Source: Plasmodiophora brassicae (taxonomy: Eukaryota). Taken from it: a stretch of DNA of 64,000 bases. Every line of letters starts with the position of its first letter. Within the stretch, counting starts at the first letter, position 1. The position numbers and the translations under genes were made by a program. The notes under the pieces were generated by a model. The model was not told the DNA's origin, ran no database searches, and saw nothing but the letters and a program-made list of their open reading frames with translations. Location of the stretch: the NCBI GenBank assembly GCA_036867785.1, contig CP145420.1, positions 496,001 through 560,000 on the forward strand. The letters are read 5' to 3'. Below are positions 18,707 to 29,260 of this stretch, piece after piece.

Positions 18707-20016
18707 GCCGATGGCGGACAAGGCGCTATGGTCCACCGAGGCAACGTCTCCCAGCCGTTATGCTTTTTTGCGATTCGGCTGGCCCTCAGCGCTCACGAGC
18801 CACGACTCACGACCGATTTCGACAGGCGCCGAATTTGAGCACACAGAAATAAGGAATGAAAAACGATGCGAACTTGATGGTATGCAGGGTGTGGCAGCCT
18901 CGTGGAATGTCACGTTCGGCGATTTGCAGTGTATGCCGTCCTGTCGGGTGTCCTGGGCACGCCTCGATCGCTCGATCCCAGTGGCATGGGCTCCGGTGAG
19001 ATGTGTTTTGTAGACCCGGGTGCTGACTGTGTAAGTCTGGCAGGAAGGGGCGAGCAAGTTCATATTTTATGTGCGGATGTGTGTGACCGCGGAGCCGACT
19101 GCGCTCTGGTCCTTCCAGCCACATCCTAGAGGGCACGAACTGAAGTGGCGCCCATGTCAATAATGAAGTACTTGATGCGTCACCATGCGAGGAGAAACAG
19201 GACGCTATCCAGCGGTTGGCCGTCTTCGCAATGACTGTCTCACGGCAGGTAACGCAGGCCGATTGCTCTGGACCAGTTCGATTACGTCACGGCGCGCGTG
19301 ACGTCTGGGCCTGTGCTCCAGGCGCGCAGGTTAGTTGTGGCTTTGGAGTCGAGAACATCCTAGAAACGTCACAGGCCCACTGACTGCATCCTTGCCGCAT
19401 CAGTCGGCATCACGTCGCTGTTAGCACCAGTCCACATAGCGCAGTCGTCACATTGAGATGATGAAGGAGCATGAGACGAATTTCCCGCCAGGCACGCGCA
19501 TTCAACGGGGTAGCGCTGAGAAGATCGCCAAGATACTGGGCCTAGACCTGGACGTGATCCGCGAGCATTCCCGAAACGGGACCGCCCTCGGCGTGAACCT
19601 CGACATTGTCGGGCCCCGAATCCACCCGCAGCGAGACCCCGACCAGATGCTGGACCTCCGTGACCAACCAGACTGGCAGCCTGATCCCATTGTTCCCGAC
19701 GGGACCAAGCACACCCGAGTTACGGACCCGGCCGCCTGATAAACAGCACGCCTGCCGCAGACTTCCTGATCGTTGGTCGGGAACGAAAACGACACGTCTC
19801 CCGCGAATCAAAACCCGAATAGGCGTTTGTCGTCGACGAAGTCGGGAAGTGCCAACGGCCTGGGACACTGTCAAAATGGGAGCCGGAAGCCGAGAACCCA
19901 CGAACGCAGTCCGTATGGCGTAACGTTGCGTAGGCGATTCGGGGACACTGACGAAGCAGAGGCCGCTGCCAAGTCCTTGATGGGCTTGTGGTCAGCCTGC
20001 CTGCAGCAACTGTGTC

Positions 20017-21866
20017 ATGGCTCCGCGCCGAGAATGTCTGCGCGTGTTCATGGAGGACGGGTCCTGGACGACGCTTGACGCCACGGATACCAGTACTGTC
20101 CAGGTGCTTTCGCCGACAGGCGCCGATCCGCATCCTCCTGCGTGATAACTATCGTTGTGTAGCACCTTTCCAATGTCCTACAGCGCAAGCGTAGACTTGA
20201 CCAAATGCGGGTGCCGGTGTTCACTCTATCCTACAAATATGACGGAAGTCGGTATAATGGGGCTGTTCAGGTTCCACAGAGTCTGACCATGTCCTGGGTA
20301 GATCAATTCGAACGGACGCTTACACGGCATGAATGCCCTATTGTGATTATGGATGCGTTGGAAAAACACGGAAGTAGGAAGGAACCCACCGGAACAATGA
20401 GCATCTATCTGACTTCCTTATAGGGCTTGGGTCACCAGTCATTCGTGTCCGTCAGGTTGACGGCGATGAACGGGATGCCTATGAGCGCGAGCTTCAACCC
20501 AACAGGTCTCCAGCGCAAATCATTGGTAACAGTAGACGTTTGCCTTTGCAAACAGCGCATCGTCTAAGGTCAGTTGTAGACGTGCGTGATGAGTGCCATG
20601 GATATCTCGATATGCTAACGGGAGGGCATGAGCTGTTTACCCGATATTGGGTTGTGCTAAGTGAGGGCAAATTGTTCTGGTTTAAATCCCGTCACGATAG
20701 AAAGGTATGCGTTTAATTTATGCTCGCGGTAGACTTGTGTCTTACGGTGGCGATTGACAGGTGAGAGGTCACATCGACTTAGACGATGTGATCGTGAGAT
20801 CGGATAAAGTTAACCTGGTGGGACTATTCGGGCGTGTCTATCCTGGCGTTGGTCCCAGCGCATACGTGCTGCGCATCATGAAGCCAGACAAGCTTGTCCA
20901 GTTCCGCATGGACTCCATCGAGCAACTTCGCACCTGGTCGTCAAGCCTTCGGCTGCATTGCGAAGCTGATTCCGTACAAGAGTCTCCTGATCAGCGATGC
21001 TCCGTCGCCTGACTCTGTTGTACAGGACCCCAATGGCTTGCTTGATAATGCGTGCCTCCAGATCGATACGGAAGAGCATGACTTCTGGACGGCACACGAG
21101 GACATCGTCCGAAGCATTTCGAGCATGCAAAACCTTGTGGGCAATCCGTTCGCATTCCAAGCCTTCCTATCGTTTCTCGAGGAAACGCATTCGCAAGATG
21201 GTATGCAGGGAGTGTGTACTAACATGCTTTATCGTGAACCGTGCTGTGGTGTAGGACTGTTATTCTGGTTTGCTGTTAATCAGTTTGTTACGACATCATT
21301 GCACGAAGACCAAGCCATGAACGTCGCCGAAGCGATTTTCGAAAAGTTCTTGGCTACTGGTATGCTGAGCTGCTGCCACAACGATAAGTCGCCGCCGTTC
21401 ATTGTTTCTGGCAGGGGCTCCCCGCGAGATCGGCATTTCTCCTTCAGAGCAATCGGATATTCAGGCGTTGCTGCGTAGGAGACCTCTTGACCGGGCACTA
21501 TTTGATCAGCTCTCACGACGGATTATGTCGGAGTTGGAGCAGGAAAAGTACCCTGAATTTAAGCGGAGCGCATGCTATCGTCGGATACTGTTGAACACAA
21601 GACATGTGCCTGACTGCGCACCCTTACTCGGCAACGCGTCGAGACTTTCCACATCCTCGACATCGTCACTCTCTAACTACTCCGGCCGTAATTCCTTAAG
21701 CGCAGGATCTTATCGAACACCTCCATTTCCACTCTCAAACTACCGTCTTTCCCGCGAAATACCATATTCAAGTGGAACTCCAACAGGTGACGGCACCGTT
21801 GCCTCCAGTCGAGGCCGCATACGAAGCGGCTACTGTACATTATCGCCCATCGTCAAAAGCACTTAA
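20017..21866 (+). CDS. RA(ubiquitin-like)-PH-RGS domain protein; 5' end may extend to about 19458
   Basis: Spliced reading gives LRVFMEDGSWTTL...FERTLTRHECPIVI (RA-like), GYLDML..FTRYWVVLSEGKLFWFKS..VRGHIDL..EQLRTWSSSL (PH), and AFQAFLSFLEETHSQDGLLFWFAV..IFEKFL..GAPREIGI..LFD..YPEFKRS (RGS). Confidence 0.8.
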
Positions 21867-22084
21867 CATCTGTGTTCAATATAAGTCAGTTATTTTATTT
21901 CGCTCTCCCTGTGTCGCCCCTGTGTTCATGCCGAGAGACACGAGTTTTGCAATCGTACTGGACTGGTTGACTGTCCCGGTCCCGCCCGAAGTGACGACTC
22001 ACTCAGTGAGGCCCCGATGGGCGACGATGATCCAAAATTTCCGCCCCGTGATTTTTTGGTCGTCAGATCGAGTTCGACTTGACG

Positions 22085-22818
22085 ATGGCGTTCGGGTATG
22101 AAGGCGCGATGATGGGCGTGGAGCCGCCTACGACCGGCGAGCACATGCTGGGGACGACTATCATGGCCGTGGCGTTTGATGGGGGCGTGGTGGTCGGTGC
22201 CGATTCGCGGACGTCGACGGGGGCGTACGTCGCGAACCGCGTGTCGGACAAGCTGACGAAACTTCATGACCGAATCTACTGTTGCCGGTCTGGGTCAGCC
22301 GCCGACACCCAGGCCATTGCTGATATTGTCAAGTACTATCTCGATGTGCATAGGTTGGCAGGATTCATGTGTCCCAAGGGTCACCGATTGAGTTTACCTT
22401 GAATTGTAGCATCGAGATTGGCGATCTTCCCGAGGTCTCAGTTGCCGCTCATCTTGCACGACGTTTGTGCTATGATTACAAGGACTCGCTGCTCGCCGGT
22501 CTCATCATTGGCGGATGGGACAAGAGGAACGGCGGGTCGGTGTACACGGTCACGCTTGGCGGATCAGTCGTGAAGCAGGACTATTCGATCGGCGGTTCTG
22601 GATCGTCGTACATCTACGGCTACTGCGATGCCCATTTCCGTAAGGGCATGACAAAGGAGGAGTGCCAGAAGTTCGTTCGTCACGCAATCTCACATGCCAT
22701 TGCGCGGGATGGATCATCTGGAGGCGTCATCCGTCTTGCTACTATCGATGCAAACGGCGCTGAGCGGGTGATGGTGCCTGGCGACCAGCTGCCATACCTG
22801 GCAGAAAAGAACTACTAG
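22085..22818 (+). CDS. PSMB6: 20S proteasome subunit beta type-1 (beta1/PRE3), one intron
   Basis: Propeptide ending [55 protein letters not shown]. Confidence 0.96.
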
Positions 22819-22922
22819 ACGCTCTCCCGAGAACACCTCCTGTCGAATACATTTCGAGCAAATTGTCTCTGGACAGTCTTGGTTCGCCGACACAAATCAG
22901 ACGATGGTGTATTCCATATCTT

Positions 22923-23975
22923 TCAGTACCAATCGTGCACCTTGCCTTCGTACCAGAACTTTCCAGATGGCGAACCCTCGGGGAGCTGAGCGAGCTTCAA
23001 TGGGGTTTGGATACCCTCTTCGACAGACAGATGGGCGTGAGGGCCCGTCATGTCCGTCCGAACATACCCTGTGCGTACACGAGTTAACTGATGGTACCCA
23101 AGGAAACGGGCGTTGCTAGAAGCACCAGGGCAGCAACAGTTGATTAGAATGCCGGCGTTCTTGTATGAGTTGTCGCGGGCCATAATGCGGGTCAACATCG
23201 ATACGCCAACCTTGCTGATGCCATACGCTGACTTGGGCCAACCCTTACTTTCCCAGACACCATCGCGAACATCGGAGATGAATTCCTCCATCAAATCATT
23301 GAGCCTAGTGGCAAGCGCATCAATGGAGGACTAAAACGAATCAGAATCTCCCGAGACCCATCAATCGTCAGGTTGTCGGCGAGGAAGCGGCCACGCAGAG
23401 ACTCACTGCAACTGCCCAGTGCCTTGCAGGACACCGTGCTGGAGATGCTAACGACGCGTGCATTGCGACGCATCAGCGGTAGAAACTCGTTCATGCAGAA
23501 CAGCACTCCGTAGTAGTTCGTACGAATAGTGCCGCGCGCGACCCTGCCACGTTCATTACATGTCAGGGATACGAACGTCGATGTGCCACACCGCTGAAAT
23601 GGTTACTTTTCATCGAACGCGTCGCCTTTCCAAGCCATGCCGGCGTTATTGATAAGGATATCCAGGCCTGCAGCAATCTCGCGGTAAGATCAGATAGAAG
23701 ACACGTAGGTACGACGTCGACAGCAGATTGTCACCTCCATAATCCGCTTTGATTGTCATTGCGGCTTTCCCGATTGAAGCTACGTCGTCGACATCAACCA
23801 CAAGGAGGCGGACGTTGTCGCGGCCAATCTTCTTGACCGCTTCCTCTCCACGTGCGGCGGAACGGGACCCTAGCAGAACGGTGATGTTTGGGGCGCCCGA
23901 ACTGGCCAGGGCCTGCACCAGCCCGAACCCAATGCCCTTGTTCGCCCCCGTCACGAGCGCTACGCGGCTGCTCAT
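22923..23975 (-). CDS. Carbonyl reductase (CBR1-like short-chain dehydrogenase/reductase), multi-exon
   Basis: VALVTGANKGIG NAD(P)-binding motif, YGISK catalytic YxxxK, INCCCPG.VRTDM, and a terminal PSGKFW. Confidence 0.92.
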
Positions 23976-25553
23976 TTCGTTCCAGAAATTTGTCCGCCGG
24001 CCAGCTTCACTGATTCGAAATGACAGGTCCTTGCACGTCGTACTCGAAGCGGGATAGCCTTCTATGGCCCCAGCTTCAGTCATTACCTAATTCTTCGAAA
24101 TTCATACCCTTCAGGTTTGATGGCTATCCCACATTTAATGGCAGCTCCCTTGTCCACATTGGCTGTCCGGGCTCTATTCTCGCTGAAGAAGCATACACCA
24201 CTGCAGCCATCACACGCAATGCCTGACACACAGCAATGACGTTCGTAGCGATGCTGCTGCGGTTCAGCGACAGCTTGCATCAAATGAGAGACTGCCTGGC
24301 ATGAGACTATAGGTAGATATATATGCACACGGTTGTATTACTACGTTGATTGAGAGATAACTGTGCGACATCGACAACACGTGCATGGTCCCTACGGCAA
24401 AGTAATCTCTCATAAGAGCACGTTCGACAAACGTAGATAGCAGTAAGGGCGATCATGCGAAACGTAAACATGTCAGAAACAGCCATAAAGTGTCTTCGAC
24501 AACTTATGATGCAGTATAAACCAGAACTGCATCGTTCGGACTGGTGCCAGATGGTCATCACTCATGGAACAACAGAGAACAGAAACCGGGAAAAACGTTG
24601 TTACCTAAGGGCACATGTTAGATACAGTACATGATTGACAGGCAATAAAACACATCGTGCATCAGACTTTCGAAAACGAAACATCATCCCCACGAGAAAG
24701 AATCGGAAGAGGGAGCTAAGTTCTGTCATCATTTGGAAATAGGAAACCGACCCAACAAGATACCACAATCCAATGACAACACCATACGCAGGTGCCTACC
24801 TGTGATGTTGAGAACCGTCAGCCTCAAGGCGAAATGCCCGTGCGGTGTTGTTGGACAGCGAGATCGCCTGCAAGACCTACAGATGCCGCCACGGAGTCCG
24901 TGAACTAGGTACCGTATATGGGCTGCTGCCCTAAGATAACTCGCGAGTCTCGCGACGCGGGGACTTGATACGAAAGCCCCTGGAGCTCCCAATTCCCATC
25001 CCATTCCCGGCCTCTGACGTGTGGACAGATCCCTGACAGTCTCCGGCCCTGAAGAGCAGATCTATAATGATGTCATCGAGCGAAATGCTGCAACGGGCCG
25101 GGAAGATTGACAACGTGCTAACTGCTAAGGCGACGCAGAAGCGGCTGAGCAGGTGGACGCCGGCTTCAGGAATTCGGTTTACGGCCAATGGGTGACTCCT
25201 GGTCGTCTAGAGAATGCCGTCGCCACAGCTCTGTTCGGCGACCTTCACGCAGAGTCGATGACGGTCTGCTCCCGCAAACCCCGTCGGCGCGTCCATTGCC
25301 GTCTGTTATGGTGAAACACAGCCATACTTCATCCACCGAGACGTGCCCGTCAGACATCGGCGTCATTACCTCGCGAAATGCTCCGATTTGAAAACGCAGG
25401 AACGACTATAATGCAGCATCCAGACTGTGAGCACGGTGCAAATGAGGACGCCAATACGTATGAGCAGAGCAGCGGCACGGTATGGGACAGAGGAAACCTG
25501 GTGAACAGGTTGCGGCAACTCCTTAGGCACAAGGCCGATATTAATCCCCGCGT

Positions 25554-26249
25554 TTATGACGACGAGTTGGCTCGCGACAGTTGACTCTGCTGGTCGTGAG
25601 CAACTGGACCCCGTGCAGTGACCTGGCATTGCACCGTTCATCAACACAAACCGCTCGAAGATCGAGGTCGTCGGAAGATAGCGAACCTTAAAGTCGCAGC
25701 CTCCACCAACGACAAAGGTGTTGCGAGGCGTCAGCAACAGGTGACCCATTCGAACTGGCACATCTTGGCAGATGATCTTGACCCCGTGCGTGCCAGACAG
25801 AGCATCCGACATCGGTTTCCGTTCGACCGCAAACGCATATCGAGCGCCATCCGTCAAACACAGTTTCAATGTCCGTTTGCCCTACGACACCGATATGCGT
25901 AAGGGCGCCGTCCAGCGCCTCTCCTGCTGGTCCCTACTGGCGGTCTGTCCTGCTCATCATGCTTTCGACCAATATCTGCCCCATCCACAACTTGTAGAAG
26001 CCGTCGCCCTGCATACAGGTTCATCAGAAGAGATGCGATCCAGCAGGGCAGCAATTGATTCGGACCAGGGAGACAGTCGACAGACAGCATGTTCTCGGGA
26101 ATGCATGGTACGCAGCACTCATGCGCATGCGCCAACGCCAGCTGCTCCATGACGCACCGAGAGTCACCCTGGCAGTGGGCCAGCGTCTCTCGTAGCCAGT
26201 CTGCTGCGACGGCACCCTCCAGCGCACTCGGCAACGACACCGGCGCCAT
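25554..26249 (-). CDS. RMI1-like N-terminal OB-fold protein (RMI1/TDRD3 type), short form
   Basis: LLQVVDGADIG, RTLKLCLTDG..AFAVE, GVKI..DVPVRMGHLLLTPRNTFVVGG. Three GT-AG introns; stop inferred at 25554. Confidence 0.75.
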
Positions 26250-26365
26250 AAATTGGGTGTTTTAGGTACCAACCGGTCACTGCGTTGAGGATCCCAATTC
26301 CCAGGGCACCATGAGCAGATATTCCTCTGGCATGATCGAATCCAGCTGTACGACAACTGTATGCG

Positions 26366-29260
26366 ATGCAGAGTGCCGGCCGTCGACCTTCTCCGGTTCT
26401 ACCAACCCTGGCGGAAGGCGAAGACGAGACAAATGACAAACCCAACGCAGATCCGCCCGGACAGCCGCAATCGGATCAGCTGCCGCTAATGACGTCCGCT
26501 CCAAAGCTGACGCGGCCGTTAAGCTTCCTGGAACGTCAACAGAGCGACCTGCAACAGCGCCACCACCGCCGTCGAATGCTAGCGAATGGGGCCGAATCCG
26601 TCGTCCACAAGCCGGCCCCGGCGATACCGACGGGCCCATTCGTCAGAACGTCCCGCGCCGTTCCCGTATCGGTTCGGGACCTGACCCATCTATCGGACAT
26701 CGCCGGCGAGGCCGCCGACCGCGAGACCTGGACGTCCTGGCGCACGCCGGCGCTTCGCCAGCGCCGCCTCGACAAAGGCATGTCGTCCGCGTTCTTCACG
26801 CACCTCGAACAGGTCCCCCAGGCCGGCCACGATCGTTCTGCGCCGATCACTGCCTACGTCGACGCCTGCCGCAGGGTCATGGTCCCGGTCCGCCCCATCG
26901 TCATCAACGACCAGGGCGCGGACCTGTGCGCCCGCGCCATGGAGCTGATCGACGGCCACGCCGTCGCCGTCAGATGCGCGCTGGAGGCCAGCGGCGCCAC
27001 GTCCGTCGACCTGGCTGACAACTGCATCGGGCCGGTCGGCACGGAGGTCCTGCTGTCGGCCCCGCAGCTGCGCAAAGTCGTCCTGTCCGGGAACCGGCTC
27101 GGCCGGCACGGCGCAGTTGTCTGCGCGCAGTTCCTCGTCCTGCACCAGCGCTGCCAGCTCATGCAGCTCGATATCGCCGGCAACGCCGTCGGCGCTTACG
27201 GCGCCCAGCTCGTTGTCGACGCCATGCTGACGAACCGGACGCTCACGTCGCTGAACGTCGCCAGGAATGCGGTCGGCGATGACGGCGCGCGACACATCGG
27301 TCGACTGCTGAACGACGCGATGTCGACGCTGCGGAACCTGGACATCAGCGGGAACGGCATCACAGAGGACGGGTTCGCGTATGTTGCGACCGGCCTGGAA
27401 AGGAATCGCCGTTTATGCACATTGATTGCGTCGGGGAATTCGCTGATGAAGACGGGCGTGCTGCTGGCCAGCGTCCTGGAACGGCACCCGGCGATGCGGC
27501 GGGTCGACATTGGCAACTGCGACGTCGGCGTCGATTCGGGCATGGTCCTTACCAGGGCTCTGCGTCTGAACCCGCGCATCGAGGAGATCGTCCTGAACGG
27601 GAACCCGCTGGGGACATCAGCCCGGGCCATCGTCTGGTGCCTGGTGACAACGTCGGCCGCAAGCCGCGTCCAGCGCCACCTGCACTTATCCAACTGCACT
27701 ACGGTCGAGGAGGATGCTGACGACCCGTTCCTGTTCGACCCGAGGTCGCCGGGTGGGCCTCGGGTCCTCGACATGGCGTCGCCATTCCATCAAGCCGTTG
27801 CCACCGAGGTGCTGGCCATGGCGACGCTGCCGGGGATCACATCGCTGACGAACGTGTCGATCGGGATGCGGGACGCGCCCGGTGTCCTCGACGTGCGCCG
27901 ACCGGACCCCTGGGCGACGCTGCCCGCCAGGGGCGTCGTCCAGTTCGACTTCATGTGGTACCCGCGGCCGACGCAGCTGGCCGATGCCCTCAGCGACAGC
28001 GAATTCGGGTCGGTGATGCGTCTGCTGTCCGACCCGCTGCTCGTCACCGATATCGACCGGCTTCGCCTGTTCGAGTCGTCCTGCTCCAGCCTCACGTACC
28101 GCGACACGCAGATCCGCGACGTCCTGTCATTGTTCACCCCCGGCAGCCCTGAGCGAATCGTCGCCGCCGCTCACCTCCTGATCTCCTCCGTGCGCACGTC
28201 GCCCGGCGACCCGCTGGCGTCGCTGTTCGCCCCGAACGACCGCGTCCTGGTCGACCGGGCCACGCACCTGTTCAGCAGGACGAACCCGACCGGGCACTAC
28301 CGGCTGAACCTGTCGTCGGCCGTCGACCGGCACATCGCCCAGGTCCTGGTCGACGTCAGCGGGTGGCACGCGCTGCAGTCGCGGAACGGGGCCCCGGGCC
28401 TGTCCCAGAGCTGCAACGGGCACCTGTGGCGCAACGAAACGCTCGACGGCGCCCCCTTCGTGTTCGCCCCGCCCATGCGCCTGCCGCCGCGCGGCATCCT
28501 CGACCTGGACTTTGTGCTGCGGTCGACGGACGTGTCGGCGGCGGCGTCGGTGCCGGCGCTGGCGCACGACTTTGTCGACCTGCTGCAGACGCTCAACGGG
28601 TACCTGGACGACGAGGACGGCGGCGTCGTTCAGGAGGTGCAGCACCGTGTGGTGGACTGGGTCGACTTCGAGCCCGTGTCGATCCCGGCGATCTCGAACG
28701 TGGAGCGCGCCCTGGGCGCGCTGCGCCGCCTGTGCTCGACCGATCTGCTGCTCGCCGAGCAGGCGGCGGTCGTGCTGCGGTGCTTCAGGACGATGCCGGG
28801 GCGGGTCGACGCGTTCGTCTGCATGTACGGGAGGATCATCGGCGACCAGGCCGTCCGGCACCTGTTCCAGAGCATGTTCGACGCGTCGTCCCAGATCACG
28901 TTAATGTCGCGCCTGGGCCCGCTGGCGCTCTGGAGCCCGTTCGTCCCCGTCCCGTCGTACAGCGTCGAGCTAAGGCACGCGGACGCGCGCCTCCTCGTCG
29001 GGCACATCCTGCGGATGGTCCTGGTCGAGCGGCGCCTGCAGGTCAGGAACGCGGTCCTGGACGGCCGCCCGATCAACATCCCGGCGGTCTGGATCGCGCA
29101 GATGCCCGATCGGGGCACGCTCCGGTTCGACCTGGCCGTCGCCGAACCGAACCTCGCCGTTCGCCAGCGCATCGCCAGGAGCGTCCTCGGGTGGGACCCG
29201 GGCGTTATCCAGGCCGCCATAGACGCCATGGGCAGCACGACCCTCCATAGCCACGTATAA
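26366..29260 (+). CDS. RNI-like leucine-rich repeat protein with three C-terminal repeat modules
   Basis: 964-aa intronless ORF with LxxLxLxxNxxGxxGA repeats (LTSLNVARNAVGDDGA, LRNLDISGNGITEDG). Confidence 0.85.
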   Translation: MQSAGRRPSPVLPTLAEGEDETNDKPNADPPGQPQSDQLPLMTSAPKLTRPLSFLERQQSDLQQRHHRRRMLANGAESVVHKPAPAIPTGPFVRTSRAVPVSVRDLTHLSDIAGEAADRETWTSWRTPALRQRRLDKGMSSAFFTHLEQVPQAGHDRSAPITAYVDACRRVMVPVRPIVINDQGADLCARAMELIDGHAVAVRCALEASGATSVDLADNCIGPVGTEVLLSAPQLRKVVLSGNRLGRHGAVVCAQFLVLHQRCQLMQLDIAGNAVGAYGAQLVVDAMLTNRTLTSLNVARNAVGDDGARHIGRLLNDAMSTLRNLDISGNGITEDGFAYVATGLERNRRLCTLIASGNSLMKTGVLLASVLERHPAMRRVDIGNCDVGVDSGMVLTRALRLNPRIEEIVLNGNPLGTSARAIVWCLVTTSAASRVQRHLHLSNCTTVEEDADDPFLFDPRSPGGPRVLDMASPFHQAVATEVLAMATLPGITSLTNVSIGMRDAPGVLDVRRPDPWATLPARGVVQFDFMWYPRPTQLADALSDSEFGSVMRLLSDPLLVTDIDRLRLFESSCSSLTYRDTQIRDVLSLFTPGSPERIVAAAHLLISSVRTSPGDPLASLFAPNDRVLVDRATHLFSRTNPTGHYRLNLSSAVDRHIAQVLVDVSGWHALQSRNGAPGLSQSCNGHLWRNETLDGAPFVFAPPMRLPPRGILDLDFVLRSTDVSAAASVPALAHDFVDLLQTLNGYLDDEDGGVVQEVQHRVVDWVDFEPVSIPAISNVERALGALRRLCSTDLLLAEQAAVVLRCFRTMPGRVDAFVCMYGRIIGDQAVRHLFQSMFDASSQITLMSRLGPLALWSPFVPVPSYSVELRHADARLLVGHILRMVLVERRLQVRNAVLDGRPINIPAVWIAQMPDRGTLRFDLAVAEPNLAVRQRIARSVLGWDPGVIQAAIDAMGSTTLHSHV

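What the first reader, a model, noticed from the sequence alone, without database searches (positions are those of the whole stretch)
20017..21866. RA-PH-RGS architecture: a possible Ras-to-G-alpha coupling protein
Seen after splicing: an RA/ubiquitin-like domain (about 20030-20370), PH (about 20590-20965) and RGS (about 21130-21590). Established: tandem RA-PH defines the Grb7/10/14 and RIAM/lamellipodin Ras/Rap effectors, and RGS domains are G-alpha GAPs. I do not know this exact three-domain order from model organisms. Inference: a coincidence detector recruited by Ras-GTP and phosphoinositides that switches off heterotrimeric G signalling.
Basis: partly seen in the sequence, partly recalled or inferred. 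Interest (0 to 1): 0.7.

Follow-up and report, generated by a model that had tools for sequence, protein, structure and literature searches.

The report
Ras-binding RGS adaptor of Rhizaria
The clubroot parasite makes a real, spliced protein that joins a Ras-binding domain, a lipid-binding-type domain and a G-protein switch-off domain; it belongs to an apparently unnamed family of related amoeboid protists, but the parasite's copy has lost the residues for lipid binding and for switching G proteins off, so it probably acts as a Ras-recruited adaptor.

Summary
Window 20017-21866 (+) is Plasmodiophora brassicae PBRA_003351: 9 exons, 471 aa. All 8 introns are spliced in 4 of 4 runs laid, so RA, PH and RGS lie on one transcript. 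All three domains pass Pfam cut-offs and fold as expected.

The architecture is not unique. At least 18 other proteins carry RA-PH-RGS with a conserved PH-RGS linker helix. Five of the six named sources are Rhizaria (Spongospora, Lapot, Paulinella, Amorphochlora, Elphidium); one euglenid record is doubtful.

The proposed mechanism fits only in part. The RA domain keeps its basic residues and models onto the genome's own Ras (0.83, best control 0.00; a textbook pair). The PH domain has lost the K-x-G...[K/R]-x-R lipid motif that 26 of 28 relatives keep whole. The RGS domain has Gly at both the Asn88 and Asn128 positions of RGS4, whereas 28 of 30 other RGS domains in this genome keep Asn128.

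Best reading: a Ras-GTP-recruited adaptor with a GAP-poor RGS domain, derived from a rhizarian Ras-plus-phosphoinositide-gated RGS. Coupling Ras to G-alpha is already known from RGS12/14. New variant of a known kind; moderate interest.

The parts
20017..21866 (+). Gene PBRA_003351, 9 exons, 471 aa RA-PH-RGS protein (P0002)
20029..20461 (+). RA / beta-grasp domain, aa 5-94, exons 1-4; conserved R9, K38, R39
   Evidence: Pfam RA, RA_2, RA_3; model; conservation; Ras complex model
20594..20961 (+). PH domain, aa 121-224, exons 5-6
   Evidence: Pfam PH; Z 14.8 to DAPP1 PH
20612..20647 (+). Degenerate PH phosphoinositide motif: M127, T129, T136, Y138 where relatives have K, G, K/R, R
21029..21115 (+). 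Family-conserved long linker helix between PH and RGS, aa 230-258; E245 kept in 25 of 26 rows counted
   Evidence: models; linker profile
21122..21596 (+). RGS domain, aa 261-382, exons 7-9
   Evidence: Pfam RGS E 4e-19; RGS8 E 6e-12; Z 16.8
21191..21256 (+). SQDG in place of SEEN (RGS4 Glu87-Asn88 read Asp286-Gly287); the Gly codon is split by intron 7
21432..21434 (+). Gly328 at the RGS4 Asn128 position (EIGIS against EVNID)
21612..21863 (+). Disordered Ser-rich tail, aa 388-471 (20 of 84 residues Ser; pLDDT under 50)
20104..20162 (+). intron 1
20248..20301 (+). intron 2
20374..20423 (+). intron 3
20526..20579 (+). intron 4 (in frame, joins RA side to PH side)
20705..20760 (+). intron 5
20974..21025 (+). 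intron 6
21201..21254 (+). intron 7 (in frame)
21360..21414 (+). intron 8

Best explanation
PBRA_003351 is the phytomyxid member of a rhizarian RA-PH-RGS family. Shown: one spliced protein with three folded domains; the RA surface is conserved; the PH lipid motif and the two RGS asparagines are lost. Inferred: GTP-loaded Ras at the membrane binds RA strand beta2 and the end of helix alpha1 and recruits the protein. Because the PH pocket is degenerate, recruitment depends on Ras alone, not on Ras plus lipid. The RGS domain then works as a protein-binding module (weak G-alpha binding or another partner, as in the non-GAP RGS-homology domains of axin or sorting nexins; recalled) and not as an efficient GAP. 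The wider family keeps the lipid motif and mostly the Glu-Asn dyad, so it was probably a Ras-plus-phosphoinositide AND gate that delivers a G-alpha-binding, at best weakly active, RGS domain.
For: Splicing and identity. RA: K38 is kept in 21 of 23 and R/K39 in 20 of 23 relatives with a residue there. These match the alpha1 lysine needed in Grb14 (Lys140) and RIAM (K213) (passages; the residue match is my inference from strand/helix position). The genome encodes a canonical Ras with YDPTIEDSY and a CAAX end. The complex model scored 0.83 in 3 of 3 runs, best of 3 controls 0.00, runs agreeing in at least 93% of contacts, partner pLDDT at least 81, contacts RA 7, 14-21, 37-40 on Ras switch I (on eukaryotes the mark was reached by 71 of 105 solved and 2 of 126 unrelated pairs). 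PH: K 27/28, G 28/28, K/R 28/28, R 27/28 in relatives, against M/T/T/Y here and M/P/S/R in Spongospora; mutating the like triad inactivates the RIAM PH domain (K327A/K331A/R333A). RGS: Asn88, Asn128 and Asp163 are the three critical G-alpha contacts of RGS4 (passage), and Glu87/Asn88 to Ala abolishes GAP activity (passage); here they read Gly, Gly, Glu. Control: the 30 best-scoring of 82 RGS matches in this genome keep Asn128 in 28 and Arg167 in 27. The two phytomyxid proteins sit on a long shared stem (1.4 changes per column, support 100).
Against: RA-Ras is a textbook pair and solved RA-PH/Ras complexes exist (4k81, 4kvg), so the pass may come from memory and shows likeness, not binding. R9 was not among the confident contacts, and the beta2 basic residue of Grb14 (Arg120) appears to have no counterpart (W17-T18-T19). 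The Ras chain carried a 19-residue intron read-through and alignments were not used. A second Ras-type gene exists and was not modelled. The RGS fold, Glu326 and Glu363 are well kept, Asp286 and Glu365 are conservative changes, and Asn88 is kept in only 16 of the 30 control domains, so motif loss does not prove loss of GAP activity. The control set is biased towards canonical domains because it was picked by Pfam score. Several family rows are near copies (7 of 28 are foraminiferan-like), so the counts overstate independence. No partner for a scaffold role was identified.
Confidence: 0.55

Rival explanations
1. Ras-gated GAP for a matched, divergent G-alpha. The RGS domain is still active but has co-evolved with G-alpha subunits whose switch I Thr182 is replaced by Ile or Val; Gly at the Asn88 position would make room for the bulkier residue.
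For: Of 20 G-alpha switch I segments recovered from 38 loci, 16 have Thr, 1 Ser, 2 Ile (L047, L055) and 1 Val (L060) at the Thr182 position. Asn88 contacts Thr182 in RGS4. The Gly is shared with Spongospora, so it is fixed and not random decay. The genome has a large G-alpha and RGS set (85 and 82 exon-level matches).
Against: Asn128, which orients the catalytic Gln, is also lost, and the Arg167 position is Glu. No pairing evidence was obtained and no RGS/G-alpha complex was modelled. G-alpha subunits without Thr182 may simply be RGS-insensitive.
Confidence: 0.17
2. One reading: Ras-GTP plus phosphoinositide recruit the protein, which switches off canonical G-alpha.
For: All three folds are intact. 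Two genes with a PI3K Ras-binding domain upstream of a PI3/PI4-kinase domain exist in the genome, so Ras-linked 3-phosphoinositide synthesis is plausible. For the wider family the PH motif is kept, and Glu87 in 24 and Asn88 in 16 of 26 rows.
Against: In this protein all four PH motif positions and both RGS asparagines are changed. Even the wider family keeps Asn128 in only 2 of 26 rows and Arg167 in 1 of 25.
Confidence: 0.15
3. The RA domain does not bind Ras (it binds Rap-like or other partners, or is structural), and the protein is a generic multi-domain scaffold.
For: RA Pfam scores are modest (28.9 bits); the beta2 basic residue appears absent; many RA domains bind Ras weakly or not at all (recalled); a complex pass does not tell which family member binds.
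Against: The alpha1 basic pair and beta1 Arg are conserved across the family, including in the fast-evolving phytomyxid copies that lost the other motifs; the modelled interface is the canonical one.
Confidence: 0.13

Closest known systems
RGS12 / RGS14 (RGS-RBD-RBD-GoLoco)
   Same: One chain holds a Ras-binding ubiquitin-like domain and an RGS domain; RGS14 is an H-Ras effector and a G-alpha GAP (PMC2655719, abstract). This is the closest known logic.
   Different: Reverse order, Raf-type RBDs rather than an RA domain, GoLoco instead of PH, intact GAP residues (recalled), animal-only architecture (PMC3971589 passage). Best read as convergence; no homology beyond the RGS domain was seen (RGS14 E 4e-05, RGS part only).
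Grb7/10/14 and MRL proteins (RIAM, lamellipodin)
   Same: RA followed by PH; the best Foldseek hits for both models (E 3e-10 to 2e-8); RA_2 profile hit; alpha1 basic residues.
   Different: RGS instead of BPS-SH2 or proline-rich tails. The packed RA-PH unit was not reproduced (rmsd 14-17 A; inconclusive). The PH sequence is closer to TAPP1/DAPP1/cytohesin types, and the lipid motif is lost in this copy.
Canonical R4-type RGS GAPs (RGS4, RGS8)
   Same: Same nine-helix fold, 28-29% identity, Z 16.8, rmsd 1.9 A over 130 residues.
   Different: Asn88 and Asn128 positions are Gly, Asp163 is Glu, Arg167 is Glu.
'RA//RGS' architecture in de Mendoza et al. 2014 (PMC3971589, supplementary file 3)
   Same: An RA plus RGS combination was already catalogued among many eukaryotic RGS architectures.
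   Different: No PH is listed with it, and the species cannot be read from the text of the heat map; it may or may not be a member of this family.

Membership tests
Canonical RGS GAP | RGS-box fold | tested here: met
   Pfam RGS 69.6 bits; Z 16.8, rmsd 1.9 A, 130 aligned to RGS8
Canonical RGS GAP | Glu87-Asn88 dyad | tested here: not met
   SQDG against SEEN of RGS8: Asp286-Gly287. Placing RGS4 numbers on this motif is recalled; their role is
Canonical RGS GAP | Asn128 (or Ser/Gln substitute; substitutes recalled) | tested here: not met
   EIGIS against EVNID: Gly328; 28 of 30 control RGS domains of this genome keep Asn
Canonical RGS GAP | Asp163 | tested here: inconclusive
   Glu365, a conservative change; the controls keep Asp in only 11 of 30
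Canonical RGS GAP | Measured acceleration of G-alpha GTP hydrolysis | not testable with these tools
   needs an assay
Grb7/10/14 and MRL | RA domain directly followed by PH | tested here: met
Grb7/10/14 and MRL | Basic residue at the end of RA helix alpha1 contacting switch I (Grb14 Lys140, RIAM K213) | tested here: met
   K38/R39 conserved and in contact with Ras switch I Asp in the model; a model, not a measurement
Grb7/10/14 and MRL | RA and PH packed as one structural unit | tested here: inconclusive
   rmsd 14-17 A to 3tca, 4k81, 3hk0, 4gn1 in both models, but pTM is only 0.46 and 0.56 with 24-33 sequences
Grb7/10/14 and MRL | PH basic triad for phosphoinositide binding | tested here: not met
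   M127, T136, Y138 in this protein; kept in relatives
Grb7/10/14 and MRL | C-terminal BPS-SH2 (Grb) or proline-rich Ena/VASP region (MRL) | tested here: not met
   no SH2 or BPS hit at E up to 1; RGS follows PH
RGS12/14 (R12) | RGS-RBD-RBD-GoLoco order | tested here: not met
   order is RA-PH-RGS, no GoLoco or RBD hit in P0002
RGS12/14 (R12) | Binds activated Ras | tested here: inconclusive
   model passes, 0.83 against 0.00, textbook pair

The most novel reading that the evidence does not exclude
Rhizaria evolved, independently of animal RGS12/14, a Ras- and PIP3-gated regulator of heterotrimeric G proteins. In the plant-parasitic phytomyxids it was rewired into a lipid-independent, Ras-only switch whose altered RGS surface is matched to a private set of G-alpha subunits carrying Ile or Val at the switch I Thr182 position, giving an insulated Ras-to-G-alpha channel.
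Probability: 0.15. Interest if true: 0.7.

Novelty: new variant of a known kind. Interest (0 to 1): 0.42.

Why it matters
It defines a conserved signalling family in Rhizaria, a supergroup with large G-protein systems and few functionally studied parts. It shows the RA-PH tandem outside animals, and gives a second, probably convergent, route to the Ras-plus-RGS logic of RGS14. The family also offers a natural experiment: relatives with intact PH and Glu-Asn motifs against two parasite copies that lost them while keeping the Ras surface. The limits: RGS domain shuffling is known to be pervasive in protists, and nothing links this gene to infection.

Tried and rejected
(1) Artefact of gene prediction: rejected, since all 8 joints lie on single contigs in 4 of 4 runs.
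(2) The 348-aa database form P0001 (SPQ99703.1, labelled 'mitochondrion'): it leaves the model at residue 342. The runs show no joint or indel there, so I treat it as another assembly's or annotation's variant; not traced further.
(3) Paralogues: the search of the own genome with P0002 found only RGS-part matches elsewhere. The Pfam RA search found nothing, not even this gene, because of short exons, so it says nothing. A profile search of the own genome was not available, so a divergent paralogue is not excluded.
(4) Word-index searches found no full-length relatives and only 9 rows with the profile; the family came from the exhaustive search.
(5) The ESM Atlas gave no RA-PH-RGS cluster and only leads under 0.9 to Grb/RAPH1; it covers only clusters of 50 or more members.
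(6) Packed RA-PH unit: not seen in two models; inconclusive.
(7) Monophyly of the family's RGS domains: 24 of 25 fall in one branch of support 80 together with 3 other rows, and P0023 falls outside (FastTree, 121 columns; 35 of 120 eligible other rows picked at random, 15 of 30 own-genome domains). Weak; not claimed. The full-length tree is the quick tree, as the careful search did not finish.
(8) Euglenozoan range: P0058 (Ploeotia vitrea transcriptome) nests in a 96-support RGS branch with Lapot and Paulinella; contamination or transfer is as likely as inheritance, so I do not count it as range.
(9) Weak Pfam hits PAE and PMT_C2 (E 0.09-0.28) are below cut-off and ignored.
(10) Literature: 'RA-PH-RGS' 0 papers. 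Plasmodiophora with RGS gave 3, 1 and 1 listings, none on topic by title and abstract start. RGS architecture with Rhizaria gave 1 paper. Anantharaman et al. 2011 and Bradford et al. 2013 were not read and may list this architecture. Supplementary file 1 of PMC3971589 could not be searched, part 1 of its file 3 was seen only as search snippets, and its heat map is a picture.
(11) Earlier scan notes by sequence and by words: nothing.

Full report
SOURCE AND GENE. The window is G000:C11:496001-560000 of a 25.3-Mb, 20-contig genome; the protein's database records name Plasmodiophora brassicae. From the sequence I built a model with 9 exons and 8 GT..AG introns of 50-59 nt that gives 471 residues without a stop. 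I laid 4 of the 24 runs listed. All 4 show all 8 joints on one contig each, with no other letters or indels. The runs are only guessed to be RNA, and contig depth cannot rank expression, but the exact skips show splicing. The model equals P0002 = CEP03744.1 / PBRA_003351.

DOMAINS. Pfam gives RA 5-81, PH 121-224 and RGS 261-378, each above its curated cut-off. AlphaFold2 on a 24-sequence alignment gives confident domains (pLDDT mostly 80-97), a long helix 230-258 between PH and RGS, a disordered tail from 388, and low overall pTM 0.46, so domain placement is not resolved. Foldseek ranks the RA-PH structures of RIAM, Grb14, Grb10 and lamellipodin first (E about 1e-9) but at rmsd 14-17 A. A second model, of the Lapot protein (pLDDT 89.5, pTM 0.56), gave the same result. 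The packed RA-PH unit of those animal proteins (PMC3742580 and PMC3471229, passages) is therefore neither shown nor excluded. The RGS part matches RGS8 at Z 16.8, rmsd 1.9 A, 130 residues.

FAMILY. The exhaustive search found 565 proteins at E up to 0.001 and listed 150. I scanned 27 of them with Pfam at E up to 0.01: 17 carry RA-type, PH and RGS domains in this order, 6 PH and RGS, 3 RGS only, 1 PH only. A second scan of 59 proteins (47 more from that list, 12) added one. That makes 18 other proteins, a lower bound. They share the PH-RGS linker helix (the profile was built from most of these rows, so that score is partly circular). Of 20 looked up, 6 name an organism: Spongospora subterranea (39% identity), Lapot gusevi, Paulinella micropora, Elphidium margaritaceum, Amorphochlora amoebiformis and Ploeotia vitrea; 14 name none. 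Lapot and Elphidium are Rhizaria and Ploeotia is a euglenid; the other three as Rhizaria is recalled. The Ploeotia row nests among rhizarian rows and may be a contaminant or a transfer. The two phytomyxid proteins form a pair with support 100 on a long stem (quick tree).

RA SURFACE. In 28 family rows (5 of 33 left out: the two phytomyxids and three near-duplicate fragments), K38 is kept in 21 of 23 with a residue there, R/K39 in 20 of 23 and R/K9 in 16 of 21. Grb14 uses a beta1 Lys, a beta2 Arg and an alpha1 Lys against Ras switch I; RIAM needs K213. The beta2 basic residue appears to have no counterpart here. The genome has one canonical Ras (YDPTIEDSY, CAAX end) and a second Ras-type gene (YDPTIEDDF) among the 30 loci and 11 regions that I read. 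The complex model of RA 1-100 with that Ras, GTP and Mg scored 0.83 three times, best of 3 controls 0.00, contacts agreeing at 93% or more, partner pLDDT 81 or more. RA residues 7, 14-21 and 37-40 lie on switch I. On eukaryotes that mark was reached by 71 of 105 solved and 2 of 126 unrelated pairs. This is a textbook pair, so the pass shows likeness and not binding; R9 was not among the confident contacts.

PH POCKET. Relatives have K-x-G...[K/R]-x-R in strands beta1-beta2: K 27 of 28, G 28, K/R 28, R 27; whole in 26 of 28. P. brassicae has M, T, T, Y and Spongospora M, P, S, R. The like triad is required in RIAM; that a 3-phosphate signature motif exists is stated in PMC4735990 (passage), while its exact form is recalled. 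Loss of the lipid kinase does not explain this: two genes carry a PI3K Ras-binding domain upstream of a PI3/PI4-kinase domain.

RGS SURFACE. Against RGS8, SEEN reads SQDG, EVNID reads EIGIS, and EKDSYPRF reads EQEKYPEF. RGS4 Asn88, Asn128 and Asp163 are the critical G-alpha contacts (PMC8252600, passage), and the Glu87/Asn88 double change abolishes GAP activity (PMC10794492, passage citing Srinivasa 1998); mapping these numbers onto the motifs, and the role of Arg167, are recalled. The wider family keeps Glu87 in 24 and Asn88 in 16 of 26 rows but Asn128 in only 2 of 26 (alignment there is less sure) and Arg167 in 1 of 25. The 30 best of 82 RGS matches in this genome keep Asn128 in 28, Arg167 in 27, Glu87 in 28, Asn88 in 16 and Asp163 in 11 (this control is biased to canonical domains). 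So the whole family is atypical, and the phytomyxid copies more so. Against a simple 'dead' reading: the fold is intact, the Gly at Asn88 is shared with Spongospora, and 3 of 20 G-alpha switch I segments recovered from 38 loci carry Ile or Val at Thr182, the residue Asn88 contacts. That leaves a matched-pair model open; I did not test it.

MECHANISM. Most likely (0.55): Ras-GTP recruits the protein through RA; the PH domain no longer reads phosphoinositides; the RGS domain is a binding module with little or no GAP activity. Shown steps are the gene, the domains and the motif states. Ras binding is modelled. Everything about G-alpha is inferred.

COMPARISON AND NOVELTY. It works like RGS14 in holding a Ras-binding domain and an RGS domain in one chain (PMC2655719, abstract), and like Grb/MRL proteins in its front half, but it fails the membership tests of both and of canonical RGS GAPs. 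De Mendoza et al. 2014 describe pervasive RGS domain shuffling and rhizarian RGS expansion (passages); their architecture list has RA//RGS but no RA-PH-RGS in the part I read (supplementary file 3, part 2). My searches found no description of the family; subscription papers, including Anantharaman et al. 2011, were not covered.

VERDICT. Real, expressed as a spliced transcript, single-copy as far as tested, and a member of an apparently undescribed rhizarian family. New variant of a known kind; interest 0.42.

Noticed in passing
window 19980-20078 (+): An out-of-frame upstream ATG opens a 32-codon frame that overlaps the start of the gene; two short in-frame upstream frames start at 19876 and 19915. 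The transcripts cover this region, so translation may be damped.
   Followed up: no
window 21875-22033: A short low-depth contig in run X3 ends in a T run on the + strand at 21875, which would fit the poly(A) end of an antisense RNA between this gene and the next (one contig, depth 2.4).
   Followed up: no
window 19300-19900: Covered without joints in 4 of 4 runs; the 99-codon open frame 19440-19739 (+) has no Pfam hit.
   Followed up: partly
window 22052-26000 and beyond: Neighbours are ordinary housekeeping genes: proteasome subunit (22052-22818 +), short-chain dehydrogenase (22923-24086 -), RMI1 (about 25366-25881 -), an LRR protein (26336-29260 +), TFIIIC Tau95, Lon protease, CitMHS transporter, RRM/HAT protein, BT1 transporter, ankyrin protein. 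No signalling cluster.
   Followed up: partly
G000 whole genome: 82 RGS and 85 G-alpha exon-level matches: a very large G-protein system for a 25-Mb parasite genome. My paper searches found no study of it.
   Followed up: partly
L047, L055, L060 (G000:C20:461-466 kb; C10:292 kb); L048: G-alpha genes with Ile, Ile and Val at the switch I Thr182 position, and one with Ala: possibly RGS-insensitive or atypically regulated.
   Followed up: partly
G000:C5:396-399 kb and C5:321-324 kb: Two genes with a PI3K Ras-binding domain upstream of a PI3/PI4-kinase domain, suggesting class I-like Ras-activated PI3 kinases.
   Followed up: no
P0001 (SPQ99703.1): A 348-aa form of this gene is labelled '(mitochondrion)' in its source record although the gene lies on a nuclear-type contig with spliceosomal introns; it diverges at residue 342.
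   Followed up: partly
P0013, P0025, P0027, P0033, P0140: Other unusual RGS architectures among the hits: RhoGAP+RGS+MORN, RasGAP+RGS, RGS+G-gamma repeats, RGS+amino-acid permease, ankyrin+Ras+RGS; sources not looked up.
   Followed up: no
L073 and L079 (G000:C15:521-523 kb): A small GTPase gene with a tandem, altered second copy that has stops inside the match.
   Followed up: no
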